64,000 nt of DNA from Escherichia phage vB-Eco-KMB43 (OR525698.1), one strand, 5' to 3'; shown: positions 1,699-63,253, counted from the first letter of the stretch. Translations and numbers: made by a program. The notes: generated from the letters alone by a model not told the origin.

Positions 1699-3498
1699 AT
1701 GCTAATGTTTAATAACTCCGTTAAATGGTTTACCGGAATTGTAGAAAACAGGGAAGACCCATTAATGCTGGGGCGTGTTCAGGTTAGGATTCATGGTATA
1801 CATCCCTCGCTATCCGCACACGGTGACATTCAAGGTCTCCCAACCGAAGATCTATTATGGATTACGCCAGTACAAGATATTACAAGCGCGGCGATCTCCG
1901 GTATAGGTCAAAGCCCTACTGGTATTGTTGAAGGTTCAATGGTATTTGGTTTGGCTTTAGATGAACGTTATTTAAACTGCGTTATTCTGGGTACTATTGC
2001 CGGACAATATACAGAGAAACCACTCACTACAGAAGGTTTTTGCGACCCTTCTGGTGCATATCCTCGTTATATTGGTAATGATGTTAATATTCTTGCTCGT
2101 GGCGGTATTAACCCAGAAACCGGACAAACAACAAAACCTGATAGTGTCTATATTCGAGATGAAAACACTGGAGTTGCAGTAAATCCAGACGACGAGCCAT
2201 TAGACCAAATTCCGGTTGATGATAATCCTGATTTTACAATAGAAAAAATGCTGCGGGGCGATGAGGGATATCGCGAGAAATGGTATCTTGATTCAGAAGG
2301 ATATCCGACAATAGGCATCGGGCATTTGATCATTTATAAGAAAACCAGTGATCTGGGTATTATCAATAATGAACTTTCTAAGCTGGTAGGGCGTGAAGTT
2401 ACAAACGGAAGACTTACCGCCGAAGAAGTTAGTAAAGTATTTGCCGACGATATAGAAAAGACTCGTCGTGATATGCGCAAACATCCACGAATTGCACCTG
2501 TCTATAATAAATGTAATGCTTCTCGTCGTATGGCATTAGAAAATATGGCGTTTCAAATGGGTGTTGGTGGATTGGGTAAATTTAAGAATAGTCTTGCTGC
2601 GATGTTAGCGGAAGAATGGAAACAAGCCTATGATGGATTACGTCAATCTGTATGGGCTAACCAAACTCCAGGACGATCCAGCCGTGTTTCTAAAATTATT
2701 TTAACTGGTAACTTAGAATCATATGGCGTAATTGCTCCAAAGAAAGATGAATCTGTTTCTGATGATCCGCGAGCACGTTTGAGAAATGCCCGTATTGCTG
2801 CCTATAAGACGCAGAGAGCAGAAGAAGACCCAGAAGCACCGTTTACCCCACAAGACACACGAATCATGTTTAAAGAGCCTAAGAGTTCGTATTCTGCGAG
2901 GTATCCTTATAACCATGTGTACGAGTCAGAGAGCGGTCATATTATCGAGATTGATGATACTCCTTCTCACGAACGTTATCACCGCAAACATCCTTCTGGT
3001 ACATTTGAAGAAACCAGACCGGACGGAACGAGGGTAGAAAAGATTGAGGGTGATGATTATCTGATCGTTAAGCAAGGCCGGAAAGTCAACGTTAAGGGTA
3101 ATTTGCAAGTTGTTGTTGAAGGTGACGCGCAAGTTTATTATATGGGTAATGTAATGCAAACCGTTGATGGTAACGTCACTGAATTTATTCGTGGCAATGT
3201 TAATCAGACCGTTGAAGGTACTGCTAACATGCATGTTGTAGGTGATGTTACCGCTCAGCTTGACGCTAATTTAACGGCTAATGTCAAGGGTAATGCTGAA
3301 TTAATGATCGAGGGTAACACTACCGAAACAATTAAAGGTAACTATGATTTAACCGTTGAGGGTAATTTTAATATGACCGTCAATGGCACTAAATCAGATC
3401 AGGTTAATGGTGACTGGTCCCGTAATTGTGGTGCAAGCGTTAAAGATATTGCATCTGGTACAGTTAAAATTGATGGTAGCCGTATTGATCTTGGGTGA
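1699..3498 (+). CDS. gp5: baseplate hub/cell-puncturing protein gp5 with lysozyme domain
   Basis: 599 aa; internal T4-lysozyme-like segment YLDSEGYPTIGIGHL; C-terminal octapeptide-like beta-helix repeats (VxGNxxxxV pattern, e.g. VKGNLQVVVEGDAQV, VEGTANMHVVGDV). Confidence 0.85.
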   Translation: MLMFNNSVKWFTGIVENREDPLMLGRVQVRIHGIHPSLSAHGDIQGLPTEDLLWITPVQDITSAAISGIGQSPTGIVEGSMVFGLALDERYLNCVILGTIAGQYTEKPLTTEGFCDPSGAYPRYIGNDVNILARGGINPETGQTTKPDSVYIRDENTGVAVNPDDEPLDQIPVDDNPDFTIEKMLRGDEGYREKWYLDSEGYPTIGIGHLIIYKKTSDLGIINNELSKLVGREVTNGRLTAEEVSKVFADDIEKTRRDMRKHPRIAPVYNKCNASRRMALENMAFQMGVGGLGKFKNSLAAMLAEEWKQAYDGLRQSVWANQTPGRSSRVSKIILTGNLESYGVIAPKKDESVSDDPRARLRNARIAAYKTQRAEEDPEAPFTPQDTRIMFKEPKSSYSARYPYNHVYESESGHIIEIDDTPSHERYHRKHPSGTFEETRPDGTRVEKIEGDDYLIVKQGRKVNVKGNLQVVVEGDAQVYYMGNVMQTVDGNVTEFIRGNVNQTVEGTANMHVVGDVTAQLDANLTANVKGNAELMIEGNTTETIKGNYDLTVEGNFNMTVNGTKSDQVNGDWSRNCGASVKDIASGTVKIDGSRIDLG

Positions 3499-3506
3499 GG
3501 TAACTA

Positions 3507-4073
3507 ATGGTTGAAATTCTTCCGATGAGTTCAAAATTGGAGGATATCAGCGAGCGAGAAATCTTTGAGGTGGTGTTCTCTTATAAAGCAACGCCACCGG
3601 ATGCAAATACCACATACACGATTAAAGAGTTTAAGATCAGCGAGTATCGCCCTAATAAGGGCGTTACCGTTGAAGAAACTAAAATATCTGGTGAGTATCG
3701 GGATAGTTTTTCGCTTGGCGCGGATTCTCTTAAATATATAACGAAAGATAGAATTAAAAAATCTGCCGGAAGTTTTGATGATTTACCAGATCCAACTACC
3801 GCAGATCTATATTATTTTAACGCTCCTACACGTCTACAGGAGGTTTATACTTATAAAGTAACCCTAACCTATATCCAATCTGTTTCAGAGTCTTCTGGTG
3901 GTTCTGATGAAGGAAATAGTGGTGGTTCCAATAGCCGAGAGGGTGCTGGTGAAACTAATCCGCCTCCGGTAGTAACCGAGCACACAATAGAGAAAGTTTA
4001 TACTCAAACCGTTTTTGGAAATTGGGATGTGTGGGCGCAGCAACTAAGAGATTATGTACATAGGGGTGTTTAA
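3507..4073 (+). CDS. 5.1: gp5.1-like hypothetical protein
   Basis: 188-aa ORF in the 5.1 position between gene 5 and the PAAR-like 5.4 ORF. Confidence 0.4.
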
Positions 4074-4366
4074 TGGCTGGATTATCCTACGATAAAGCTA
4101 AAACTACAGGGCACGGAAACTACCCACCTACGGTAATTAATGCAACTCAATCTAAGGTATTTGTTGAGGGTATCCCTGTATTAGTCGAAGGAGACCCAAT
4201 TACACCACATACAAAAACAACAAAGCCTTATGATACACACGGGGGAACTACGGTCGCCAGTACCCCGAAAGTATTTGTTACCGGAAAGAAAGCAATTCAA
4301 ATGGCAGATCGTATTAGCTGTGGCGATACCGTCGCTATGGCATCACCGAAGGTATTCATAAAATGA
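4073..4366 (+). CDS. 5.4: gp5.4-like spike-tip (PAAR-type) protein
   Basis: 97-aa ORF, same length and position as T4 gp5.4; start overlaps the 5.1 stop. Confidence 0.55.
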
Positions 4367-6267
4367 CAAAGCAAAAGATTACACAAATTCCTGATATTTT
4401 TAATGCTGCTACATTCGATGAAATTAAAAGCGCATTAACAGACTGGATGAGAAACCAGGAAGAATTTAAAGATTTTGATTTTAATGGTGCTGGTATTAAC
4501 GTATTGATGGACTTGCTCGCATATAATACCCTTTATATTCAGCAATTCGCCAACGCCGCGCTATATGAATCTTTTATCAGAACGGCAATTAAGCGTAGTT
4601 CAGTTGTTCAAGCCGCGCAAGATTTAGGATATTTGCCAGCAAGTAAAACTAGTGCATCGACTACAATTATGTTGCACGTATCCCATCCGCGAAATCCGGC
4701 AAGTATTCGAATCCCACGAGGAACTAAATTTATTGCAAGTGTGGATCGCCAGACGTCTTACCCGTTTGTGACTACAGAAGACGTTGTGAGCGTTTTAGGT
4801 TCAAATGGTTTATATACGCCCATGCTTAAAGTCGCACAAGGTCGTATTGTTCGTACAGAAATGTTATTTGATCCGAAGAAACAAATTCTGATCCGTGATC
4901 CTGATATTGACCGCGCTCAGGTTAAGTTGTGGGTAGACGGTGCTGAATGGAAAGACTGGACGCGAGAAAGCATTGTTAATGCAACTGGCGCTAGTAATAT
5001 TTTCTATATGCGTGAAACCGTAGACGGACATACTGAAATTTTCTTTGGTGAGGGCGAATCAACTTTATCTGCTGCTGGTGGGGCGCTGGAAGCAAATTAT
5101 ATTGGTGGACTTAAGCCGTCAACTGGTGCTAATATTGTTATCGAATATATCAGCACTAAGGGCGCGGAAGCAAACGGTTCAGTTAATTTCACATACGCGG
5201 ATACCCTTGCATCTATCTCTATTGTTAAAATTATTGAGAATCCGACAAATGATCGTGATTATGTCGGTGCAGATGGTGGTGGTGATCCTGAATCAATCGA
5301 ACGTATCCGTGAACTTGCTCCGGTAATGCGTGAATCTCAGCGTCGTTGTGTAACTGCTTCCGACTACGAGGCTTTTGTATCTAGCCGTTTTGGTAGTATT
5401 GTTCAGGCGGTACAATGTTTCACCGACCGAGAAAAACCAGGTTATGCTTTTGTTGCTGTTAAGCCTAAATCTGGCTTGCGCTTGACAACTGTTCAAAAAG
5501 AAGATATGCGGGATTATCTGGCAAAATATAACCTTGCCCCTATCACGCCGAGCATCATTGACCCTAACTATCTGTATATTAAACAGAATATTAAAGTTTC
5601 CTATTCAATCAATGACTTGTCAGAATCAGAGCAGTGGTTGCGAGGTGCGGTTATTGATCAGATTGATGCATATTATACCGACGAAGTGGAAATTTTTAAC
5701 CAGACATTTAGTAAGTCTAAAATGCTTGCTCGTATTGACAAAGCTGATGTATCTGTGATAGGTTCTAGTGCAGAAATCGAGATGGTGCGAGAGATCGACA
5801 ACTTCTATAAAGCACCGATGGCGGGAATCAAGTTTTTAAACCAGTATAAGAGCGGAATCAAGTCTAGTTCATTCAACTTCGAAAAGGACGACAAGCAATA
5901 TCCGATCCATTATGTAAGTACAGAAATGAACAAAGAATCCGGTTTAGCTAAATTGTTGGTTGGACCTTTCCCTGTTGATTCTACAATCGCTTTACCGCAC
6001 TATTCCGGCACTGATTTTGATAAAGAGGTTATTGACGGGGCGGACCTATACTTTGAGGTTGGAGAGGTTCAGCATTATGACGACCTTATTTCATGGGATC
6101 TGGGTAAACTGAATATCAATAGCGATCGCTTTACTGGTTCATATATTGAGTTGACAGCTAAACCGATTGCTGATAACATCTTTACTAAAGACGGTTCTTT
6201 GATCGTGTTTGAAAACGATCTCCGTCCTCAGTACACAACTATTAGTCTGGAGGCAATTGCTCAATGA
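4363..6267 (+). CDS. gp6: baseplate wedge protein gp6
   Basis: 634 aa; synteny and size (T4 gp6 ~660 aa); ATGA-type overlap with neighbours. Confidence 0.7.
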
Positions 6268-53551: not shown

Positions 53552-53628
53552 TGTTTGATTCTCCTAAGTGGTATCTAGTCTTGATGGTTGTATTGTAGGG
53601 GAGTTATCCTCCCCTGTCAACACTTTTT
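53552..53628 (-). promoter_or_regulatory. promoter/5'UTR cassette copy 3 (PeSL-like)
   Basis: TTGACA (plus 53615-53620), palindromic spacer GGGGAGGATAACTCCCC, TACAAT, conserved UTR. Confidence 0.6.
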
Positions 53629-53802: not shown

Positions 53803-53873
53803 TTTGATTCTCCTATTTCGTTTCGGTATGTGTGTATTATAGGGGATCTCCCGATCCCCGTCAACAACTTTTT
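53803..53873 (-). promoter_or_regulatory. promoter/5'UTR cassette copy 4 (PeSL-like)
   Basis: TTGACG (plus 53860-53865), palindromic spacer GGGATCGGGAGATCCCC, TATAAT. Confidence 0.6.
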
Positions 53874-55130: not shown

Positions 55131-55439
55131 TCATTTAGACAAATAATCATTCTGTGCAATCCGGTCGGCGTATGCTGGTGTTACGTCAATCGCCAACACT
55201 TTAACGCGTGCTTTCTTGCGACCTGGGTTTTCTCGTAACCAGTGCTCATGACCGTGCACATTTTTATATTTTGATGCGGTTTCGAAGGTACGGATCGGAC
55301 CTGGATAATCTGCGTAAAGGATCTCTAGGTCTTCGGTGATGTAAAAATATACATCATAATTACTGTTCTCTAGTTTAAGCAGAGAATTGCGAAATTGTGG
55401 TAAATTCTCGCGGGTAAATTCAACTACAAGATTTTTCAT
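55131..55439 (-). CDS. small protein, paralogue family A (HxHW ... AxDV.P..AD), member 1
   Basis: ATG 55439 with GAGGA SD; HEHW and VLAIDVTPAYAD motifs. Confidence 0.5.
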   Translation of the reverse strand: MKNLVVEFTRENLPQFRNSLLKLENSNYDVYFYITEDLEILYADYPGPIRTFETASKYKNVHGHEHWLRENPGRKKARVKVLAIDVTPAYADRIAQNDYLSK

Positions 55440-55468
55440 AGTGATATCCTCATTCAGATAGATTAAAA

Positions 55469-55483
55469 GGGGCTTAACGCCCC
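55469..55483 (-). terminator. hairpin terminator (minus strand)
   Basis: GGGGCTTAACGCCCC palindrome, identical to 50941-50955. Confidence 0.5.
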
Positions 55484-55488
55484 GTATA

Positions 55489-55776
55489 TTAAAACAGTCC
55501 TTCCTGTACACCGTAGTAGAGTTCGTCACTGATAATTTCATTAATGCGACGGTGTGCATATTCCTGATTTGCGAAGTTGTCAGCAAGTTCTACTTTAGTT
55601 TCGCCGTCATGAGTCCATTTAGTGATAACTTTACCATCTGCAAATTTGAAGTTGAACTCTTTAGCTACTGCATCGCGTACCAGACGTGCGAACTTGTTGT
55701 TACGGATTGCATTATCGGTTTCGTGTGCAGCGTGAGCAAATTTGTTAACTTTCAGAGTGATAGTAATGTATGCCAT
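55489..55776 (-). CDS. small protein, paralogue family B, member 1
   Basis: 95 aa; LVRDAVAKEFNFK shared with 58658-58969 (LIREVRKALAKEFNTK). Confidence 0.5.
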   Translation of the reverse strand: MAYITITLKVNKFAHAAHETDNAIRNNKFARLVRDAVAKEFNFKFADGKVITKWTHDGETKVELADNFANQEYAHRRINEIISDELYYGVQEGLF

Positions 55777-55859
55777 AATTTGATTCTCCTAGTTAGAAAG
55801 TGTATCTCGTTTCGATGGGTGTATTATGCTATACACCCGATCCATTGTCAACGCCTTTT
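55777..55859 (-). promoter_or_regulatory. promoter/5'UTR cassette copy 8 (PeSL-like)
   Basis: TTGACA (plus 55846-55851) overlapping the stop codon of the upstream ORF; CATAAT. Confidence 0.55.
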
Positions 55860-56183
55860 TATAAAATAATTTTCGATATCTTTATGATGTTTTTCTCGTG
55901 CTTGGTCTGCCTCGGCTGGCGATACGTTGGAAGCGATAATCTTCACTACTGTTGCACCTTTTTCGGTGTCCGACACCCAATGATTATGGAAACCGCTATT
56001 ATTAAACACTTGATAAGAAAATGATTTAATGCTAGGGAAATTATATGTGTAATAGCGTACCTTTAATTCTGAATCTATGTATAGATAGATCACCGCACCT
56101 AGATAGACCGTCTCACTCGTTCCATCAACTAACAGTAGAGTATTTCGCAATTCTTCTAAATTGTCTTTTGTAAGAAAAATCAT
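55848..56183 (-). CDS. small protein, paralogue family A, member 2
   Basis: 111 aa; LYIDSELKVRYY, HNHW, IIASNVSPAEAD. Confidence 0.5.
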   Translation of the reverse strand: MIFLTKDNLEELRNTLLLVDGTSETVYLGAVIYLYIDSELKVRYYTYNFPSIKSFSYQVFNNSGFHNHWVSDTEKGATVVKIIASNVSPAEADQAREKHHKDIENYFIKRR

Positions 56184-56197
56184 AGTATAATCCTCAA

Positions 56198-56533
56198 TTA
56201 AACCAAATTAACTTTGGTGTTGTGGTGTTTTTCTCGTGCTTCGTCCGCTTCTTCCGGTGTCACGTTACGAGCGACTACAATAACACTTGCTGCCTCTCCG
56301 TGATGAGAGATCTCTACCCAATGGTTATGATTTGTGAATCCGTGTTTTATTGCGTAAGCGAACGGCTTGGACGTCCAGTAGTTACTATAATATCGTACAT
56401 TTAGATCGCTATCAATGTACAAATATGTGCTGTCGTTTACATTGCCACTAACAACAAAAACAAGACAATTGCGAAGATCTGGCAATATTTTGTCTGTCAA
56501 TTTTATAATGTGACTGTTCATAATTAACACCAC
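56198..56533 (-). CDS. small protein, paralogue family A, member 3
   Basis: 111 aa; LYIDSDLNVRYY, HNHW, VVARNVTPEEAD. Confidence 0.5.
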   Translation of the reverse strand: MVLIMNSHIIKLTDKILPDLRNCLVFVVSGNVNDSTYLYIDSDLNVRYYSNYWTSKPFAYAIKHGFTNHNHWVEISHHGEAASVIVVARNVTPEEADEAREKHHNTKVNLV

Positions 56534-56733
56534 TCAAGAGTTTTTGAAAACACATCTATCCATTGTTGAGTATATGCAGTTTCTTTCCACGAGACAATAC
56601 CAGTAGAATAATGATTCTTGTTTCCAGAAAAGGACGGGCATTTTGATGCATCTTCCATCATCTTTTCGGCGAACTCTGGTTCGTATACTCGCAAGATCTG
56701 TTGATATGCTTTGTAGTCTTTAAATTTGCTCAT
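56524..56733 (-). CDS. hypothetical small protein (69 aa)
   Basis: ORF between family A members. Confidence 0.4.
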   Translation of the reverse strand: MSKFKDYKAYQQILRVYEPEFAEKMMEDASKCPSFSGNKNHYSTGIVSWKETAYTQQWIDVFSKTLEWC

Positions 56734-56998
56734 AATCGTTAACTACCTTATCAGCTTCTTTTATTGTTTTTACATCAACTGCGATAACCCGTAAAGGTTC
56801 GTCGTGGTTCCACCAATGATCGTGAATATCAGCTTGTGATTTATCACCAAAGGAATCACGAATATCATTTTTACATTTATAGCTAATGTGACCGTCATAG
56901 TCAACATAAAGGTAATTATCGAAAATCGGCGTTTTTAAGATCATGCCGAAAAATCTTTCTTTGTGTGTCTTATCCAGTGTTGCAGTAATTCGCATCAT
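56720..56998 (-). CDS. small protein, paralogue family A, member 4
   Basis: 92 aa; HDHW, VIAVDVKTIKEAD; AGAGGAA SD. Confidence 0.5.
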   Translation of the reverse strand: MMRITATLDKTHKERFFGMILKTPIFDNYLYVDYDGHISYKCKNDIRDSFGDKSQADIHDHWWNHDEPLRVIAVDVKTIKEADKVVNDYEQI

Positions 56999-57010
56999 AA
57001 TATATTCCTC

Positions 57011-57190
57011 TTAGAAAGGGATGGTCATTTCTTGAGCTTGTACATTCTCGTTAGGATTAAACTTCATCCAACCGATATTGTCTACCAGCATATGCACATT
57101 TTTATCATATCCTACGTGAGTAGTCAATACTAAATGTGCTTTACCTTCAACGATGATTTCCATGTACTTCTGAACTTCGATAGCTTTCAT
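57011..57190 (-). CDS. hypothetical small protein (59 aa)
   Basis: ATG directly downstream of cassette copy 9; not in ORF track. Confidence 0.4.
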   Translation of the reverse strand: MKAIEVQKYMEIIVEGKAHLVLTTHVGYDKNVHMLVDNIGWMKFNPNENVQAQEMTIPF

Positions 57191-57191
57191 T

Positions 57192-57255
57192 TTTGATTCT
57201 CCGTTTGTTGTCTTGATGGGAGTATATTACTACTCCCTTTAATCATTGTCAACTA
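57192..57255 (-). promoter_or_regulatory. promoter/5'UTR cassette copy 9 (PeSL-like)
   Basis: TTGACA (plus 57247-57252), 17-bp spacer, TAATAT; palindrome GGGAGTA..TACTCCC. Confidence 0.5.
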
Positions 57256-57423
57256 TTATTTGTTAATTTCCGGTGCGTTGCTCGGATAGTAACCTTCTTT
57301 AACACCCAGATATTTTGCGACCATTCCGGTGATCTTCTGTGCTACTACAATGTCAAATTTCAGGTAGTCTTCACCGTGGTTTGCTACAATGTATGCTTCG
57401 CATTCTGCTTTAGTCTGGAACAT
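57256..57423 (-). CDS. hypothetical small protein (55 aa), paralogue of 53635-53802
   Basis: near-identical nucleotide and protein sequence to the first copy; ATG after cassette copy 10. Confidence 0.5.
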   Translation of the reverse strand: MFQTKAECEAYIVANHGEDYLKFDIVVAQKITGMVAKYLGVKEGYYPSNAPEINK

Positions 57424-57493
57424 TTTTGATTCTCCTATATCTCGTTGGTATGTGTGTAGTATAGGGGATCACCGATCCCCTGTCAACAACTTT
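57424..57493 (-). promoter_or_regulatory. promoter/5'UTR cassette copy 10 (PeSL-like)
   Basis: TTGACA (plus 57481-57486), palindromic spacer GGGGATCGGTGATCCCC, TATACT. Confidence 0.6.
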
Positions 57494-57802
57494 TTATTCT
57501 TCATCTTCATCTTTATCTTGATATGCGTACGTCATAAATTTGTCTGCTACTTTGTCCGCGTTTTCAGGTTCTACGTCTGACGCTAGGACAACAGCTAGTT
57601 CTGTTTTGTCGTTTCCATCATACCAATGATTATGAGTGTCGTTTTCTTCGATATAAAACGAATCATTTGGAGTTGTGCGACAATATACGTCTAAATTCCC
57701 ATCGATATAAAAGATCCAATCCGAATACAAAATGATTGTTTTAGCAAGATTTTTATTGCCTTCAACGAAAGGTTCGGCTACAAACAAATTAGTATGTTCC
57801 AT
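57494..57802 (-). CDS. small protein, paralogue family A, member 5
   Basis: ATG 57802 with GAGGA SD; HNHW, LAVVLASDVEPENAD. Confidence 0.5.
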   Translation of the reverse strand: MEHTNLFVAEPFVEGNKNLAKTIILYSDWIFYIDGNLDVYCRTTPNDSFYIEENDTHNHWYDGNDKTELAVVLASDVEPENADKVADKFMTYAYQDKDEDEE

Positions 57803-57819
57803 AGTATTTTTCCTCAAAA

Positions 57820-58011
57820 TTATACAGCTTCGTAAACTTCCCAATGTCCAACACCAGCACGCTTAACGAAAAGGTTTTCTTTTATGTTATTCATAAACGT
57901 CTGGATGGATTTAATTCGTTTGGAAGGTTTCCAGTCTTCGTTGGTATTGCGTCGATACATCATAACATTACCAGACCGCTTATATTCAGCAACCATTTTA
58001 AGACCACACAT
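57820..58011 (-). CDS. hypothetical small protein (63 aa)
   Basis: ATG 58011 with GAGGA SD downstream of cassette copy 11. Confidence 0.4.
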   Translation of the reverse strand: MCGLKMVAEYKRSGNVMMYRRNTNEDWKPSKRIKSIQTFMNNIKENLFVKRAGVGHWEVYEAV

Positions 58012-58090
58012 AATATTATCCTCAATTTGTGGGAGAGTATTACCCTCCCGATTATTGTTATACTACATTACGCAAAATGGCGTGTCAATG
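58012..58090 (-). promoter_or_regulatory. promoter cassette copy 11 (divergent variant)
   Basis: TTGACA (plus 58083-58088, inside the 3' end of the upstream ORF), TAGTAT; palindrome GGGAG..CTCCC. Confidence 0.4.
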
Positions 58091-58388
58091 CTTCTTTTGC
58101 TGTTCCGCTAAGATTCTCTATCTCTCCTGGCATAACATCAACCGCCAGAACTTCTACAACATCCTCTGATCCTAACCAGTGAGTATGACCTTTGTAGAAC
58201 TTGATAATCAGACTACCTTCCTCATCCCATTTAACGCTATCGCTAGCCCACCACACATCACCGTCGATAAAGTTGATGTAAAGCACACTACGCCACATTG
58301 AATTAATTACTTTCAATACTGCGCCTTTCATATCTTCCACGGTGTGGTCTTCCATTTTGAAGACCTCGCCTACCTGAACTTTTGCCAT
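58068..58388 (-). CDS. small protein, paralogue family A, member 6
   Basis: 106 aa; HTHW, VLAVDVMPGEIEN. Confidence 0.5.
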   Translation of the reverse strand: MAKVQVGEVFKMEDHTVEDMKGAVLKVINSMWRSVLYINFIDGDVWWASDSVKWDEEGSLIIKFYKGHTHWLGSEDVVEVLAVDVMPGEIENLSGTAKEALTRHFA

Positions 58389-58585: not shown

Positions 58586-58657
58586 AATTGATTCTCCTAG
58601 TTCGTTTCGGTATGTGTGTATTATAGGGGAGTTTAACCTCCCCTGTCAACAACTTTT
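58586..58657 (-). promoter_or_regulatory. promoter/5'UTR cassette copy 12 (PeSL-like)
   Basis: TTGACA (plus 58645-58650), palindromic spacer GGGGAGGTTAAACTCCCC, TATAAT. Confidence 0.6.
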
Positions 58658-58969: not shown

Positions 58970-59056
58970 TTTTGATTCTCCGTTTAAGAAAGTGTGTTTC
59001 GTTTTGATGTGTGTAGTATAGGGGATACGTGATCCCCTGTCAACAACTTTTTTGAA
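58970..59056 (-). promoter_or_regulatory. promoter/5'UTR cassette copy 13 (PeSL-like)
   Basis: TTGACA (plus 59038-59043), palindromic spacer GGGGATCACGTATCCCC, TATACT. Confidence 0.6.
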
Positions 59057-59401
59057 TTATTTTTTCATGAGCTTAATGGCTTCTTCCATAGCCAGCACAT
59101 TTCGATAGTTAGGGTATCGTGTTAGATCGTCATACATTCGCTTAAGGGTGGAAACTTCCTCAAACTCTGGGTTTTCTAGATACAGTTGAACAAATTGTTT
59201 CTCTACCATCTCGGCTTTTAGCTTGTCTGCTTGTTCCTGTTCATATGATTTCGTTGGACCCAACACCAACAAAATGATAAAGGTGATCAACGGGCTAATG
59301 ATCAATGATAGGATAACATAACCAATAACGCTACGGTTTAAACGGCTTGCGTACATGCCTACAAGGAAAACAAAAAGGATATAGATAAACAGAAAGAACA
59401 T
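59057..59401 (-). CDS. small inner-membrane protein (two predicted TM helices)
   Basis: 114 aa; N-terminal hydrophobic segments MFFLFIYILFVFLVGMYA and VIGYVILSLIISPLITFIILLVLG. Confidence 0.5.
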   Translation of the reverse strand: MFFLFIYILFVFLVGMYASRLNRSVIGYVILSLIISPLITFIILLVLGPTKSYEQEQADKLKAEMVEKQFVQLYLENPEFEEVSTLKRMYDDLTRYPNYRNVLAMEEAIKLMKK

Positions 59402-59408
59402 ATAATGG

Positions 59409-59882
59409 TTACTCCTTATTTTCGCGCTCGTACTTTTCGAAATAAAATTCTACTGGCTGGTCGTGGATTGACAGCAAGCCAAAGCGTTTAGCCGCTCGCA
59501 ATCCCATATTGCGCTGAATGTACTTCTGGAAGTTCTCGCGTATACACTTACGCCAGGATTCTAAGCCCATGCAGCTTTTATAAAGATTGCATTGCACACA
59601 TGCCGGATTCATGTTATCAAGTATATCATGCTCCGGTTTATGCATTCCTACAACCTTATACTTCCACGATCCATCATCATTACGGACAATTCGTCCATTT
59701 TCATCATAGACTACCTTTGAGCGTCGCAATACTGGTTTGATGTGGTCTGCGTGCCAGCGATCCCCTAGTTCCTCGCCACAATAGGCACAACGTCCACCAT
59801 ATTTCATTTTCAGGATCTGGCGTTGCTCTTTCTTTGACAATTTTTTAGGTTTAGGGGCTTTCGCCCCTTCATTATCACACAT
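59409..59882 (-). CDS. HNH endonuclease (candidate homing endonuclease)
   Basis: 157 aa; CAYCGEEL...HADHIKPV...NMNPACVQCN (CxxC-H-N-H-CxxC arrangement); start overlaps ligase stop region. Confidence 0.6.
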   Translation of the reverse strand: MCDNEGAKAPKPKKLSKKEQRQILKMKYGGRCAYCGEELGDRWHADHIKPVLRRSKVVYDENGRIVRNDDGSWKYKVVGMHKPEHDILDNMNPACVQCNLYKSCMGLESWRKCIRENFQKYIQRNMGLRAAKRFGLLSIHDQPVEFYFEKYERENKE

Positions 59883-61377
59883 CGAATACCTCTTTTACTG
59901 TATTTGCAGTGGTCTTGTCGTAGCGAATACGTTTGATGATTGGGAGAAATAAAGAGAACTCCGGTTCATCTTCTTTACGTGATTTGCTGCGAATGTACCC
60001 GTTGCATGTCATCTCAATGACTTTTCCAATCAGGTTATGACGGTCAGCCCATAACATTTCTCGGTCGAGTTCATTTCGACGATCGAACGGAATTACACGT
60101 TCAGTACCATCATCACCTTTTTCGGTTGTAGTGTCGGTTAATCCCGATCCGGTGTTAGTCATCATTCGTCCGCACGCACTACGGACAGTAAAACCGCCTA
60201 CCTTATTGGGGTCTTTACTATGCGGATATACATCAACAATTTCCGCGTCGAAGTCAATCACTTCTTTAAATTTAACCTGATCTTTACTACGGCGATCTTC
60301 AAATACACCATGTAAATTTTTAAGGATAATACCTTCTAAGCCCATGTTGACATAACGATGATATACTTCGCGAGCTTCATCGATATTGTTAACTACAGTG
60401 TTTTCTATGATCTGAACACGAGGATCGTTAAGTTCTTCAACAATCTGTTTTAGTTCTTCGAATCGATCTTTATATTGCTTCGTTGCTTTCTCGTTTCCGT
60501 AATACACATCACGGTCGATAACATCCCAGACAGTGTAAACAATACATTGGGCTTCTTCTTTTGGAATAGTTCCTTTAAGTGATTTGTTGAGGATACCATT
60601 TCCGGTCTGACGATCTGCAACAACGGATTCTTTCACTGCTTCCGCTACTGGCGTTAATGGCATTTCCTCTTCTTCAAATATCCATGACAGAGTACCATCA
60701 TAAACGCTTTCAACGAAGTTCTGCGCTGGTGTTTGCGAAAGGGTAGGCATATATACCAATTCGCCATCTAGAACAATTCCACGGCCTCGTAGACGCTCTA
60801 AAACCGCAAACAAATCATCAAGCCCTTGATAGGTATTACCTGAGCGGGTATAGATTGCTAATGTTTCCCCGTCAATATCAGCCATACCACGAGCGCCATC
60901 GCTTTTAAGTTGTGCATACGCCGGATACTTGATATTAGCAATAGTCTTATCAGAACATGACGATGCAAGGTGGCACGGTTGCTGGGGGATCAGTTTCTTC
61001 CATACCTTGTTTGCAGTGGTAGCGGAACAGCCGCATTCCAGATCACGATTCAGGACCATCATTGCAACTTTAGCATCATCCTCTGACAAGCAAGTCAGAG
61101 TATCGGTAACTAGCTGTAATGCTGCATTACCAGTTACTTGACGCGTGGCAAGTTTATTTTTAAAGACCTGTAATGCACCGGATAAAGACAATACAGACGA
61201 ATAGCGAGACGGTTTATCGTATTTCTTTACGCCAAACGTAACCTGTTTGCAATATGCCAGATAAAAGCATTCTTTCAGCGTTTCATTGCTCGCGGATTCT
61301 TTCAGAATCTTTTCTTTCAGCGATGTTTTGTCTGTTGCTGCAAGCTGATTAATGATATTAAGAATTGACATTTTCAC
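59875..61377 (-). CDS. gp30: ATP-dependent DNA ligase (gene 30)
   Basis: 500 aa; adenylation motif AQLKSDGARG (KxDGxR); size matches T4 ligase (487 aa). Confidence 0.85.
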   Translation of the reverse strand: MKMSILNIINQLAATDKTSLKEKILKESASNETLKECFYLAYCKQVTFGVKKYDKPSRYSSVLSLSGALQVFKNKLATRQVTGNAALQLVTDTLTCLSEDDAKVAMMVLNRDLECGCSATTANKVWKKLIPQQPCHLASSCSDKTIANIKYPAYAQLKSDGARGMADIDGETLAIYTRSGNTYQGLDDLFAVLERLRGRGIVLDGELVYMPTLSQTPAQNFVESVYDGTLSWIFEEEEMPLTPVAEAVKESVVADRQTGNGILNKSLKGTIPKEEAQCIVYTVWDVIDRDVYYGNEKATKQYKDRFEELKQIVEELNDPRVQIIENTVVNNIDEAREVYHRYVNMGLEGIILKNLHGVFEDRRSKDQVKFKEVIDFDAEIVDVYPHSKDPNKVGGFTVRSACGRMMTNTGSGLTDTTTEKGDDGTERVIPFDRRNELDREMLWADRHNLIGKVIEMTCNGYIRSKSRKEDEPEFSLFLPIIKRIRYDKTTANTVKEVFDV

Positions 61378-61837
61378 CTCGTTTTGTTAAACGTTCACGA
61401 ATATCATTGAGGATACTACAAAATTCCGATTCAGTCAATATAGTCTTTAACGGATCAGTTCCACCTATGCTATGACGTAATTTCTTATTTCCGGTAGCAA
61501 GTAATGCTTTACAAAATTCTGGGTTATTCCGTGCCATCGTAACAAATGCCAGATGTACCAGTCTGTAATAATGCTCACTCATTCGATGAATCGGGCGACC
61601 CTGAAAATATAACATGTGATTCTCAATCTTTTCAGTTCTTCCGGTTCTTTTTGCTTTGCCACCGTGCATCAAAAAGATTTCTCTTTGTCTCTGAGGGTTC
61701 TTAAATCTTAGCCCCTGTAAAAATCCTTCTGTGCTGTTAATATCGCAGCCAAATAAACGGAATGGTCTTTTATTGAAATTACTCAATTCACCCGATGGAT
61801 AAGGTCCACCCGCATAGATATCAATTTCAGAAGTCAT
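61358..61837 (-). CDS. NADAR / YbiA-like domain protein
   Basis: 159 aa; GELSNF...STEGFLQGLRF and ALLATGNKKL paralleling E. coli YbiA as recalled (GDFSNF...TSEHYFQAQKF, ALLATAPAKL). Confidence 0.6.
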   Translation of the reverse strand: MTSEIDIYAGGPYPSGELSNFNKRPFRLFGCDINSTEGFLQGLRFKNPQRQREIFLMHGGKAKRTGRTEKIENHMLYFQGRPIHRMSEHYYRLVHLAFVTMARNNPEFCKALLATGNKKLRHSIGGTDPLKTILTESEFCSILNDIRERLTKRGENVNS

Positions 61838-61991
61838 TGAAACTAATCTCGCTAATCAGAGAGAACGGATCATAATCGTCATTAGGAATATCGATAGTAA
61901 TCGAATGAGGATTTACCCATACACCAAACTGGTCTTCTTCGGTGAATACTTCGGTATGGATTTCGTGGATGTTTACATTCATAGTTTTCAT
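61827..61991 (-). CDS. hypothetical small protein (about 54 aa)
   Basis: ATG 61991 with AAGGA SD; overlaps the start of the NADAR ORF; not in ORF track. Confidence 0.3.
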   Translation of the reverse strand: MKTMNVNIHEIHTEVFTEEDQFGVWVNPHSITIDIPNDDYDPFSLISEISFNDF

Positions 61992-62045
61992 AATAAAATT
62001 TCCTTAATAATCAATAACTTACAAAATCATATAGCCAAAATATAG

Positions 62046-62064
62046 GCGGGATTATTTCCCGCCG
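62046..62064 (-). terminator. hairpin terminator after gene 31 (minus strand)
   Basis: GGCGGGATTATTTCCCGCC palindrome with T-rich tract on the minus strand. Confidence 0.5.
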
Positions 62065-62074
62065 TTTAAAATCA

Positions 62075-62398
62075 TTAACCGTAAACTACCACAATATTCT
62101 GTTTGTGTGTTACAGTCCATTTCAGGTCGATCTCTTCTTCCTTCTTAACGCCGTTAATAACGTCTGGATGAGGAACTTTATTCATCTTGCCATGTGGCAG
62201 TAAAACAGTTTTACCCAGCAATTCTTTATCTACCGTTTCACCGATATCAATAATCTTACCTACCAGCGGAATCTCGCCCATAGTGCGCTTTTGCTCAATA
62301 ATGATCCCCATAGAGCTTTTTACTTCTGTCCCTGCGCTTTCTGCTTTAGCTTCAATGATCACATAGTCACCAAGTGCTTTAGGAGTTTTAACGGTCAT
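62075..62398 (-). CDS. gp31: GroES-like co-chaperonin gp31
   Basis: 107 aa; GDYVIIEAK and KVPHPDV paralleling T4 gp31; position between ligase and cd. Confidence 0.6.
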   Translation of the reverse strand: MTVKTPKALGDYVIIEAKAESAGTEVKSSMGIIIEQKRTMGEIPLVGKIIDIGETVDKELLGKTVLLPHGKMNKVPHPDVINGVKKEEEIDLKWTVTHKQNIVVVYG

Positions 62399-62439
62399 AA
62401 TTTTATTACCTCTTCAAATCAATACAGTTTAATGATGAA

Positions 62440-62760
62440 TTATTTATAAATTTCGACGATCTGCGCTGGAGTCAGCCCGTCTACATTAATCAGACTATCA
62501 AGCCCAAAACTACGGAAACCTTCAACTGCAATTTCATATACTGGCAAAGATGTTTCTGATTCTTTACGCGGTTTTTCAACATTCGGAACTAACCACTTTT
62601 CGTATGTTTCAAACGGCATCAGTGCCGGATCTCGCGTGGCGATCATCTCACGGACAGTACCATCTTTCTTAGTAAACTGCAAAGAGTGAGTACCGACCGA
62701 AAACATTTTCTTTAGTGCTTCACGAAGTGCGATATTATCAACTTGTTCAGTCATTATCAA
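62440..62760 (-). CDS. hypothetical protein (31.1/31.2 position)
   Basis: 106-aa ORF between cd and gene 31. Confidence 0.4.
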   Translation of the reverse strand: MIMTEQVDNIALREALKKMFSVGTHSLQFTKKDGTVREMIATRDPALMPFETYEKWLVPNVEKPRKESETSLPVYEIAVEGFRSFGLDSLINVDGLTPAQIVEIYK

Positions 62761-63253
62761 TACCCTTCAAATCAGTCAATAATGCTTTTGGAATACGCGT
62801 GATTGTAATATCTGCATTATTCAGAATATCAGCCCAATCACGCCCACCATTTCGATCATATGTGTCGCAATAGTATAGATGTTTAATACCACTGTTTGCA
62901 ATTGCTTTAGCGCAATCTGGACACGGTGAAGCAGTACACCACATACTAGCGCCTTCAATCGATACACCGCTACGGGCAGCAAACAAAATAGCATTTAATT
63001 CAGCATGGATCTCGTTTTTCTGTGACCATGCACTATGCTCTGGTCGTTTTTCTGGGATCATTTTGCCGTCATCATCCAGCCAACCGTTTTTATGTGCATG
63101 ACAGCTACAATTTACTTGCCCTGCTGGAGTTCCGTTAAATCCAGTAGAAATGATTCGCCCGTCTTTTTCGATCAGTGCGCCTACCTTCCACGAAACGCAT
63201 TTAGAGTTCTTTGCGATTAGATAGGCGATCTGCATGTAAGTTTGTGACAACAT
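62747..63253 (-). CDS. cd: dCMP deaminase
   Basis: 168 aa; zinc-binding motifs HAELNAI and PCPDCAKAI. Confidence 0.85.
   Translation of the reverse strand: MLSQTYMQIAYLIAKNSKCVSWKVGALIEKDGRIISTGFNGTPAGQVNCSCHAHKNGWLDDDGKMIPEKRPEHSAWSQKNEIHAELNAILFAARSGVSIEGASMWCTASPCPDCAKAIANSGIKHLYYCDTYDRNGGRDWADILNNADITITRIPKALLTDLKGIDND

What the first reader, a model, noticed from the sequence alone, without database searches (positions are those of the whole stretch)
59409..59882. HNH endonuclease inserted next to DNA ligase
A 157-aa ORF with a complete HNH arrangement sits immediately downstream of gene 30. Free-standing HNH genes in T4-type phages are commonly homing endonucleases, and this is a plausible mobile insertion whose target may be in or near the ligase gene of related phages.
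Basis: partly seen in the sequence, partly recalled or inferred. Interest (0 to 1): 0.4.

Follow-up and report, generated by a model that had tools for sequence, protein, structure and literature searches.

The report
Clade-fixed HNH nuclease gene beside ligase
The 157-aa HNH nuclease gene right after the DNA ligase gene is real, but it is the already annotated RB49 ORF212 of Krischvirus coliphages, an old, vertically inherited and strongly conserved gene rather than a currently mobile homing-endonuclease insertion.

Summary
A 157-aa ORF (59409..59882, minus strand) with an intact Cys4-zinc HNH (ββα-metal) site starts 8 nt before the stop codon of DNA ligase (gene 30). The window is a Krischvirus (RB49-like T4-type coliphage). 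The ORF is RB49 ORF212c, listed since 2006 as a putative mobile HNH gene.

- The gene is present and intact in all 58 Krischvirus records that span the locus and in 5 of 5 metagenome contigs.
- Its dN/dS is 0.029, against 0.039 for ligase, at equal dS.
- It is also the first gene after ligase in four uncultured sister lineages (ligase 54–72% identical, HNH 58–86%). There is no co-conversion gradient in ligase.
- Outgroups with ligase at 48% identity or less lack it.
- It has no extra DNA-reading domain.

Its nearest relatives outside this clade (39–51% identical) are small HNH genes of siphophages, prophages and about 2,700 conjugative plasmids. So it looks like an ancient capture from the enterobacterial mobilome that became a resident gene co-expressed with ligase.

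The real presence/absence polymorphism at this locus is the neighbouring ORF211 (59057..59401). The biological role of the HNH remains untested.

The parts
59409..59882 (-). HNH (ββα-Me, Cys4-zinc) nuclease gene, 157 aa; orthologue of RB49 ORF212c / Phi1 ORF212
59778..59789 (-). First zinc knuckle, C32-A-Y-C35
   Evidence: Translation check. Invariant in 78 family members and in 5 ligase-linked orthologues.
59742..59753 (-). H44-A-D46-H47: catalytic Asp-His of the HNH motif (H47 inferred general base, D46 inferred metal ligand)
   Evidence: Translation check. D46 and H47 are invariant. The catalytic roles are inferred from the established HNH/Cas9/EndoVII mechanism.
59577..59615 (-). N90-M-N-P-A-C95-V-Q-C98-N99-L-Y-K102: second half of the motif (structural Asn, second zinc knuckle, metal-binding Asn, Lys)
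   Evidence: Translation check. N90, P93, C95, C98, N99 and K102 are invariant. Model helix 96–102 follows strand 91–94.
59875..59882 (-). 8-nt overlap ATGTGTGA: HNH start codon inside the end of ligase (translational coupling inferred)
   Evidence: Sister lineages have the same tight junction: 1-nt overlap, 1-nt overlap, 16-nt gap, 23-nt overlap.
59889..59894 (-). Shine-Dalgarno AAGAGG for the HNH ORF, embedded in the last ligase codons
   Evidence: Sequence reading.
59875..61377 (-). gene 30, ATP-dependent DNA ligase (500 aa), immediately upstream in the same transcription unit
   Evidence: Pfam PF01068 at E=2.8e-22 and PHROG 114. Annotated gene 30 in RB49, Phi1 and JSE.
59057..59401 (-). 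ORF211: 114-aa predicted membrane protein. This is the truly variable cassette next to the HNH gene and is not part of the HNH unit.
   Evidence: Present in 21 of 58 Krischvirus records. The indel spans 59057..~59421, between the HNH tail and the PeSL. Window and FL04 differ by 4 nt over HNH plus ligase yet differ in ORF211 presence. Described as an RB49-unique gene by Arbiol et al. 2010.
59015..59043 (-). PeSL early promoter with stem-loop (TTGACA-GGGGATCACGTATCCCC-TATACT). It closes the ligase–HNH(–ORF211) unit and starts the hyperplastic region.
   Evidence: Element class described in PMC2839356 and PMC4122927.

Best explanation
The ORF is a functional stand-alone HNH DNA endonuclease gene, the RB49 ORF212 orthologue. 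It is a long-standing resident of the Krischvirus lineage and its uncultured sister lineages, not a currently mobile element.

Shown:
- It is the gene immediately after ligase. It shares the ligase transcription unit and overlaps its stop codon.
- It is fixed in every sampled genome of the genus.
- It has been inherited together with ligase across lineages in which ligase has diverged to 54% identity.
- It is under purifying selection as strong as that on ligase.
- All catalytic and zinc residues are invariant.

Inferred:
- It was captured once, long ago, from the pool of small HNH genes carried by enterobacterial siphophages, prophages and conjugative plasmids. It landed at the border between the ligase block and the hyperplastic small-ORF region.
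- The protein uses one ββα-metal site (H47 base; D46 and N99 metal ligands; N90 structural; Cys32/35/95/98 zinc) to nick or cut double-stranded DNA. Specificity is probably short or low, because the protein has only the HNH core, a β-hairpin insertion, a lysine-rich N-terminal tail and a C-terminal helical bundle.
- Because homing cannot select for a gene that has no empty sites left, its conservation implies a benefit to the phage. Candidates are an early DNA-transaction role co-dosed with ligase (nick-and-seal, recombination or replication processing) or attack on host or competitor DNA. Which of these applies is not known.
For: Presence and intactness:
- 58 of 58 locus-spanning Krischvirus records carry it.
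- 5 of 5 metagenome contigs carry it.

Selection, over 11 genomes:
- HNH dN/dS 0.029 (dS 0.134), ligase 0.039 (dS 0.117), gp30.3 0.024 (dS 0.136).
- No stop codons in any copy.

Deep synteny (ligase identity / HNH identity):
- L053 72% / 85%, L006 71% / 70%, L055 61% / 58%, L056 54% / 58–60%.
- In every case the HNH is the first gene after ligase.
- Flanking genes gp30.3, gp31, gp31.1 and cd are 49–80% identical in the same lineages.
- Ligase identity does not rise toward its HNH-proximal end.
- The small ORFs further downstream are mostly not conserved in L055 and L056.

Fold and active site:
- The motif residues are invariant.

Expression context:
- 8-nt overlap with ligase and an embedded Shine-Dalgarno sequence.
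- No strong promoter between the gp31 terminator (62045..62063) and the PeSL at 59043.

Foreign origin:
- No other Straboviridae-size genome appears among the 40 sampled of 117 tblastn hits outside Krischvirus.
- The best relatives are 39–51% identical, in siphophages and prophages and in 2,685 plasmids.
- GC3 is 0.46, against 0.30–0.39 for neighbouring T4-type genes.

Contrast and precedent:
- Sporadic endonuclease genes exist in the same genus.
- Conserved early phage HNH nickases with non-homing roles are known: P1 Ref and ΦNM1 Gp16 (PMC12817073).
Against: - No biochemical or genetic data exist for this protein or any close relative. Activity, substrate and role are inferred.
- Placement beside a conserved gene is also what free-standing homing endonuclease genes show.
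- The wider family does show presence/absence at fixed junctions elsewhere. At trbC|traN in IncF plasmids it is present in pSLT-like and pMccB17-like plasmids and absent in F. A selfish origin is therefore likely, and residual homing toward unsampled HNH-less relatives cannot be excluded.
- In L053 the HNH (85%) is more conserved than ligase (72%). This could also reflect a later lateral replacement, although gp31 is 80% in the same lineage.
- The literature counts this gene among putative HEGs.
Confidence: 0.7

Rival explanations
1. Active free-standing homing endonuclease. The HNH cuts the ligase region of related phages that lack it and is copied in by recombinational repair.
For: - It is a free-standing HNH between a conserved gene and a variable region, as with the T4 seg and mob genes.
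- It is listed under 'putative mobile DNA elements' and 'other HNH' HEGs (PMC1524935; PMC2993671).
- The family is sporadic at the trbC|traN junction of IncF plasmids.
Against: - No empty site exists in 58 genomes, 5 metagenome contigs or 4 sister lineages.
- Its divergence tracks the flanking core genes, and ligase shows no co-conversion gradient.
- dN/dS is 0.029 with nothing left to home into.
- No accessory DNA-binding domain was detected.
- It has no own promoter.
- Other HEGs of the genus are sporadic, but this gene is not.
Confidence: 0.08
2. Ancient homing endonuclease, now fixed and kept as an inter-phage weapon. It cuts DNA of co-infecting heterologous T4-type phages, or host or plasmid DNA. 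This gives marker or phage exclusion rather than homing.
For: - Its origin in the mobilome family.
- Strong conservation after fixation needs a benefit to the phage.
- Krischvirus lacks the hmC system: genes 42, denB and alc are not in RB49-type phages per Table 4 of PMC2993671. A nuclease that discriminates foreign DNA would therefore be useful.
- T4 HEG-mediated exclusion of T2 markers is established (own knowledge; reviewed in PMC2988022).
Against: - There is no evidence on specificity.
- An unmodified phage genome would need protection from its own nuclease.
- No immunity or partner gene is evident.
Confidence: 0.15
3. Packaging-associated HNH of the HK97 gp74 / GVE2 type, assisting terminase cleavage.
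For: - Two of about eleven sampled homologue contexts lie just upstream of terminase genes: Bas78 and Vibrio phage BT-1011.
Against: - There is no sequence similarity to HK97 gp74: BLASTP E=0.35, hhalign probability 0.7%.
- Here the gene lies in the early ligase unit, far from terminase.
- T4-type terminase gp17 carries its own nuclease and packages by headful (established knowledge).
- Most homologues sit in replication or early modules.
Confidence: 0.02
4. EndoVII-like junction- or branch-cleaving nuclease, acting as a resolvase back-up in recombination-dependent replication.
For: - Weak PHROG hits to 'endonuclease VII' families (phrog_1035 at E=4e-10).
- It has the same length (157 aa) and the same Cys4/D-H/N architecture as T4 gp49.
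- It is co-expressed with ligase.
- Alternative nucleases replace gp49 in RB16 and phage 65 (PMC2993671).
Against: - Pfam Endonuclease_7 scores 13.3 bits, below the 23.6 cut-off.
- Only RB16 and phage 65 are reported to lack gene 49, which implies RB49-type phages have it. Presence of gene 49 was not checked directly here.
Confidence: 0.05

Closest known systems
RB49 ORF212c / Phi1 ORF212 / JSE EpJSE_00219 ('HNH endonuclease')
   Same: The same gene: 96–99% aa identity, same position after gene 30. Already listed as a putative mobile HNH (PMC1524935) and as 'other HNH' in the HEG table of PMC2993671.
   Different: Nothing in sequence. This analysis adds that it is fixed in the genus, conserved in sister lineages and under strong purifying selection. 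None of the papers found through the full-text searches reports these points.
Free-standing HNH homing endonucleases of T4-type phages (MobA–E, I-TevIII, AP2-HNH such as RB49 ORF040)
   Same: HNH catalytic motif, and a free-standing gene next to a conserved DNA-metabolism gene.
   Different: It is not sporadic among relatives. It has no NUMOD, AP2 or IENR1 DNA-binding module, no co-conversion signature, and it is classed 'other HNH', not mob-like. It is small (157 aa) and belongs to the Cys4-zinc HNH type, which is structurally closest to Cas9, McrA and GVE2 HNH.
Small HNH genes of enterobacterial siphophages, prophages and conjugative plasmids (PHROG 2118; e.g. HK225 gp56, Sasha gp76, the IncF 'hnh' between trbC and traN, pHCM1 HCM1.27c)
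   Same: The same family: 39–51% identity over about 85% of the length, with all motif residues and the C-terminal F-x-F-E motif shared. They are often translationally coupled to a neighbouring DNA-transaction gene.
   Different: Those copies vary in position and presence; for example F lacks the gene and pSLT has it. The Krischvirus-clade copy is fixed next to ligase. None has been characterised.
HK97 gp74 / GVE2 HNH (terminase-associated nicking HNH)
   Different: No detectable sequence relation to gp74. It is not adjacent to terminase, and a T4-type phage does not need it for packaging.
P1 Ref and ΦNM1 Gp16 (conserved early phage HNH nickases with phage-level roles)
   Same: A precedent for a non-homing, early-expressed, conserved HNH nickase (PMC12817073). 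Ref also combines an HNH core with a basic N-terminal tail (own knowledge).

Membership tests
HNH / ββα-Me nuclease superfamily (Pfam PF01844) | Profile match above the curated cut-off | tested here: met
   26.9 bits against cut-off 21.4, E=5.4e-6, residues 32–53. PHROG 2118 at E=4e-54.
HNH / ββα-Me nuclease superfamily (Pfam PF01844) | Catalytic D-H, structural Asn and terminal Asn/His, plus two CxxC zinc knuckles | tested here: met
   C32, C35, D46, H47, N90, C95, C98 and N99 are present and invariant in 78 homologues.
HNH / ββα-Me nuclease superfamily (Pfam PF01844) | ββα-metal fold | tested here: met
HNH / ββα-Me nuclease superfamily (Pfam PF01844) | Metal-dependent DNA cleavage | not testable with these tools
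   Needs purified protein.
Free-standing homing endonuclease gene (T4 mob/seg-type behaviour) | Sporadic presence/absence among closely related genomes | tested here: not met
   58 of 58 Krischvirus records, 5 of 5 metagenome contigs and 4 of 4 sister lineages carry it.
Free-standing homing endonuclease gene (T4 mob/seg-type behaviour) | Located between or next to conserved genes that can serve as homology arms | tested here: met
   Conserved ligase lies on one side. The other side is a PeSL and the hyperplastic region.
Free-standing homing endonuclease gene (T4 mob/seg-type behaviour) | History discordant with flanks, or a co-conversion tract in the adjacent gene | tested here: not met
   HNH identity tracks gp30.3, ligase, gp31 and cd in three lineages. 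The C-terminal 100 aa of ligase are not more similar than the rest. dS equals that of the flanks.
Free-standing homing endonuclease gene (T4 mob/seg-type behaviour) | Separate sequence-reading DNA-binding module (NUMOD, IENR1, AP2, HTH) | tested here: not met
   No such Pfam domain at E≤0.1. The model shows only the HNH core, a hairpin and helices.
Free-standing homing endonuclease gene (T4 mob/seg-type behaviour) | Cleaves the cognate endonuclease-less allele and is inherited super-Mendelianly | not testable with these tools
   Needs in vitro cleavage assays and mixed infections. No endonuclease-less allele was found to model.
HK97 gp74-type packaging HNH | Sequence relation to gp74 | tested here: not met
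   BLASTP E=0.35 and hhalign probability 0.7%.
HK97 gp74-type packaging HNH | Gene adjacent to terminase or portal genes | tested here: not met
   In the window it lies between ligase and ORF211 in an early unit.
T4 endonuclease VII (Pfam PF02945) | Profile match above the curated cut-off, and a specific fold match | tested here: not met

The most novel reading that the evidence does not exclude
The ligase-linked HNH is a domesticated nickase that works with, or is buffered by, the co-translated DNA ligase. It would form a conserved 'nick-and-seal' or recombination-priming module of the Krischvirus clade. Alternatively it could be a UvsX/RecA-assisted or competitor-directed nuclease in the manner of P1 Ref or ΦNM1 Gp16. 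The same protein family embedded in IncF tra operons may play a related, still unknown role in DNA transfer.
Probability: 0.2. Interest if true: 0.5.

Novelty: already known. Interest (0 to 1): 0.2.

Why it matters
As found, this is an annotated gene with a standard domain, so it changes little.

The useful correction is that 'free-standing HNH in a T4-type phage' does not imply 'homing endonuclease'. This gene behaves like a core gene of its clade. In some lineages it is more conserved than the ligase, gp30.3 or dCMP deaminase.

It is therefore a cheap and well-defined candidate for asking what a fixed phage HNH nuclease does. The same uncharacterised family sits in about 2,700 enterobacterial conjugative plasmids.

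Tried and rejected
1. HK97 gp74 kinship: rejected, no similarity.
3. Defence-system or NCBIfam assignment: only sub-threshold generic HNH hits such as PtuB, retron HNH and Cas9.
4. PDB sequence search: nothing below E=0.1.
5. The apparent HNH-less '59th' Krischvirus record: it is AJ550428.1, a 1,491-nt fragment that ends inside gene 30.
6. Search for empty sites. IMG/VR and JGI metagenome scans with HNH and ligase queries returned only near-identical Krischvirus contigs (all with the HNH) or distant phages with ligase 41–44% identical.
7. Apparent difference between L006 and L007 ligase identities, which could have meant an identical HNH in different backgrounds. It was an artefact of the aligned ranges; the contigs are 99.8% identical.
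8. The L040 HNH 'frameshift'. The same assembly also frameshifts ligase (L041), so it is probably assembly error rather than a pseudogene.
9. Co-conversion gradient in ligase: none.
10. The idea that the HNH mobilises the neighbouring ORF211. Rejected as unsupported: ORF211-plus and ORF211-minus phages carry the same HNH. The indel junctions show GAAAA(A)TAA microhomology next to a PeSL, which fits the recombination mechanism published for this region.
11. BFVD fold search: only family members, and no T4-type phage equivalent.

Full report
**What is there.**
The window is a Krischvirus (RB49-like, T4-type coliphage). A 3.5-kb query around the finding matches 59 phage records at 96–99.7% nucleotide identity, all of them RB49, Phi1, JSE or GEC-3S relatives. 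The ORF at 59409..59882 lies on the minus strand and encodes 157 aa. It follows DNA ligase (59875..61377, minus strand; Pfam PF01068 E=2.8e-22; 'gene 30' in RB49, Phi1 and JSE). The two genes overlap by 8 nt (ATGTGTGA), and a Shine-Dalgarno AAGAGG lies 6 nt upstream of the HNH start.

Upstream, ORF215, gp30.3 and ligase also overlap one another. The only strong promoter-like sites nearby are the PeSL promoters at 59043..59015 and 58649..58620, both downstream of the HNH and ORF211. A terminator-like hairpin lies at 62063..62045, after gp31. The HNH gene is therefore part of the ligase transcription unit and has no promoter of its own.

**It is an HNH nuclease.**
- Pfam HNH scores above its cut-off (26.9 against 21.4 bits). 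PHROG 2118 'HNH endonuclease' scores E=4e-54.
- The motif is complete: C32-x2-C35, H44-x-D46-H47, N90, C95-x2-C98-N99 and K102. These residues are invariant in a 78-member family alignment.
- A ~35-aa β-hairpin insertion separates the two halves, which is why Pfam aligns only the first half.
- No additional DNA-binding domain is detectable. The remainder is a lysine-rich N-terminal tail and a C-terminal helical bundle.

**It is already known.**
The gene is RB49 ORF212c. Nolan et al. 2006 list it as 'HNH endonuclease' under 'putative mobile DNA elements' (PMC1524935). It is the single 'other HNH' counted for RB49 and for Phi1 in the HEG table of Petrov et al. 2010 (PMC2993671). RefSeq annotates it as HNH endonuclease. 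I found no experimental work on it.

**Test of the mobility idea within the genus.**
- The HNH DNA is found in 58 records. The one extra record that matched the ligase query is AJ550428.1, a 1.5-kb RB49 fragment that ends inside gene 30. So 58 of 58 records that span the locus carry it.
- tblastn covers residues 1–157 in one piece at 95.5–98.7% identity.
- Five metagenome contigs that reach past the ligase end also carry it.
- Over 11 genomes, HNH dN/dS is 0.029 (dS 0.134). Ligase is 0.039 (dS 0.117) and gp30.3 is 0.024 (dS 0.136). There are no stop codons.
- The accepted mobile endonuclease genes of the same genus are sporadic: segC only in Phi1, AP2-HNH ORF040 only in RB49, and ORF131/ORF240 only in Makalu_002.

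**Test beyond the genus.**
A ligase homologue search found uncultured sister lineages. In each one the first gene after ligase is an orthologue of this HNH.

| Lineage | Ligase identity | HNH identity |
|---|---|---|
| L053 | 72% | 85% |
| L006 | 71% | 70% |
| L055 | 61% | 58% |
| L056 (169-kb contig) | 54% | 58–60% |

- The ligase–HNH junctions are a 1-nt overlap, a 1-nt overlap, a 16-nt gap and a 23-nt overlap.
- Neighbouring T4-type genes (gp30.3, gp31, gp31.1, cd) are 49–80% identical in the same lineages. The HNH therefore diverges like a core gene, or more slowly.
- Ligase identity does not rise toward its HNH-proximal C-terminus, so there is no co-conversion tract.
- The small ORFs downstream of the HNH are mostly not conserved in L055 and L056.
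- The next outgroup (L058, ligase 48%) goes from ligase to a 64-aa ORF and then an Alt-like ADP-ribosyltransferase. Hadassahvirus PhT2, Nanhuvirus LPCS28 and four large Aeromonas-type contigs also have no HNH within 3 kb of ligase.

The gene was therefore acquired once, in the ancestor of a clade wider than Krischvirus, and has been inherited vertically since.

**Where it came from.**
- Outside this clade the best phage hits are 26–45% identical. They lie in 35–62-kb siphophages and prophages of Escherichia, Salmonella, Klebsiella, Acinetobacter, Edwardsiella, Vibrio and others. Metagenomic relatives reach 51% identity.
- Most of these homologues sit in replication or early modules: HK225 nin region, Sasha and Kpn BU9 between a methyltransferase and ParB, eiAU-183 between polymerase and helicase, fLi-Aba03 after a helicase, and L024 near RecT. 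Two of about eleven sampled contexts lie just upstream of terminase: Bas78 and BT-1011.
- The family is also on 2,685 of 72,556 plasmids, of which 2,436 are conjugative.
- In IncF plasmids it lies between trbC and traN, overlapping traN by 4 nt in pSLT-type and pMccB17-type plasmids. F itself has trbC overlapping traN with no HNH. The family at large therefore does show the indel pattern of a selfish free-standing gene.
- HNH GC3 (0.46) resembles that of the hyperplastic-region ORFs (0.43–0.47) rather than the T4-type neighbours (0.30–0.39). This is a weak hint of foreign origin.

**What is actually variable at this locus.**
- The neighbouring ORF211 (59057..59401) encodes a 114-aa protein with two predicted N-terminal membrane helices. 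It is present in only 21 of 58 records.
- The indel runs from 13 nt inside the HNH 3' end to the PeSL. This changes the last residues of the HNH (…ERENKE* against …EREHQEK*). GAAAA(A)TAA microhomology lies at both junctions.
- The window differs from phage FL04 by 4 nt over HNH plus ligase and by 0 nt in ORF210, yet only the window has ORF211. Its gain or loss is therefore very recent.
- ORF210 is also missing in Makalu_002 and SSG23.
- This is the PeSL-bounded hyperplastic region described by Arbiol et al. 2010. The HNH gene is its conserved left border, not its cargo.

**How it most likely works.**
- Shown: the gene is intact, expressed as part of the ligase unit, and conserved at the level of essential neighbours.
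- Inferred from the established HNH mechanism: one ββα-metal site (H47 base, D46 and N99 metal ligands, N90 structural, Cys4 zinc) nicks or cuts duplex DNA. Without a separate reading domain, specificity is probably short or relaxed.
- Inferred from population logic: a homing gene with no empty sites left is not maintained by homing. A dN/dS of 0.03 within the genus and conservation across sister lineages therefore imply a benefit to the phage.
- I cannot tell which benefit applies. One candidate is an early DNA-transaction role dosed together with ligase. Another is attack on host or competitor DNA; RB49-type phages lack genes 42, denB and alc.
- Conserved early phage HNH nickases with such non-homing roles have precedents in P1 Ref and ΦNM1 Gp16 (PMC12817073).

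**Rivals.**
- Active HEG, about 0.08: contradicted by distribution, congruence and selection.
- Fixed ex-HEG kept as an exclusion weapon, about 0.15: compatible with the data but untested.
- gp74-type packaging helper, about 0.02: no similarity to gp74, the wrong genomic context, and T4-type terminase has its own nuclease.

**Verdict.**
Novelty: already known gene. Interest is low (0.2). The only mildly new point is that this 'putative HEG' behaves as a clade-level core gene tightly coupled to ligase.

Noticed in passing
window 59057..59421 (-): ORF211 is a 114-aa predicted two-helix membrane protein (PHROG 25625, unknown function; weak PADLOC Drt1b-TM hit at E=6e-4). It is the real indel at this locus: present in 21 of 58 Krischvirus records and bounded by the HNH tail and a PeSL, with GAAAA(A)TAA microhomology at both junctions. 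The window and FL04 are nearly identical around it yet differ in its presence.
   Followed up: partly
window 55131..58388 (-): Six tandem small ORFs (about 92–116 aa) form a paralogous family with invariant Y, H-x-H-W, A and V positions and a V-x-A-x-(D/N)-V-x-P-x-x-A-(D/E) motif (alignment A3). Weak relatives occur in the sister-lineage hyperplastic regions. Function unknown.
   Followed up: partly
window 59015..59043, 58620..58649, 57460..57486, 53838..53864, 53594..53620 (-): Repeated early-promoter/stem-loop cassettes (PeSL: TTGACA, then a GGGG…CCCC hairpin, then TATA). There are 4 matches to the pattern against 0.02 expected by chance. They punctuate the small-ORF region as described by Arbiol et al. 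2010.
   Followed up: partly
plasmid loci L050 2986..3405, L051 2986..3408, L059 (F plasmid) 2379..4822: The same HNH family is on 2,685 PLSDB plasmids (2,436 conjugative). In IncF plasmids it sits between trbC and traN with a 4-nt overlap onto traN, but it is absent from F itself, where trbC overlaps traN directly. This is an uncharacterised, sporadic tra-operon passenger.
   Followed up: partly
L053 498..938: In the 72%-ligase sister lineage a 146-aa ORF with a weak GIY-YIG hit lies between an nrdB-like fragment and RNA ligase 1. It may be a seg-type homing endonuclease and would be a contrast case to the fixed HNH.
   Followed up: no
L040 435..875 and L041 770..1770 (assembly MAVA01): Both the HNH and the ligase are split into two tblastn pieces in contigs of one metagenome assembly. 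These are most likely assembly frameshifts, not pseudogenes.
   Followed up: no
window 59409..59882 compared with 59875..63253: HNH GC3 is 0.46, like the hyperplastic-region ORFs (0.43–0.47) and above the neighbouring T4-type genes (0.30–0.39). This is a weak compositional trace of foreign origin despite the gene's long residence.
   Followed up: partly
L056 (ENA ERZ27275846 k141_68074, 169,010-bp contig): Probably a complete genome of an uncultured T4-type phage lineage with Krischvirus-like gene order around cd–31–30.3–30–HNH. Its proteins there are only 50–60% identical, so it could represent a new genus-level relative.
   Followed up: no
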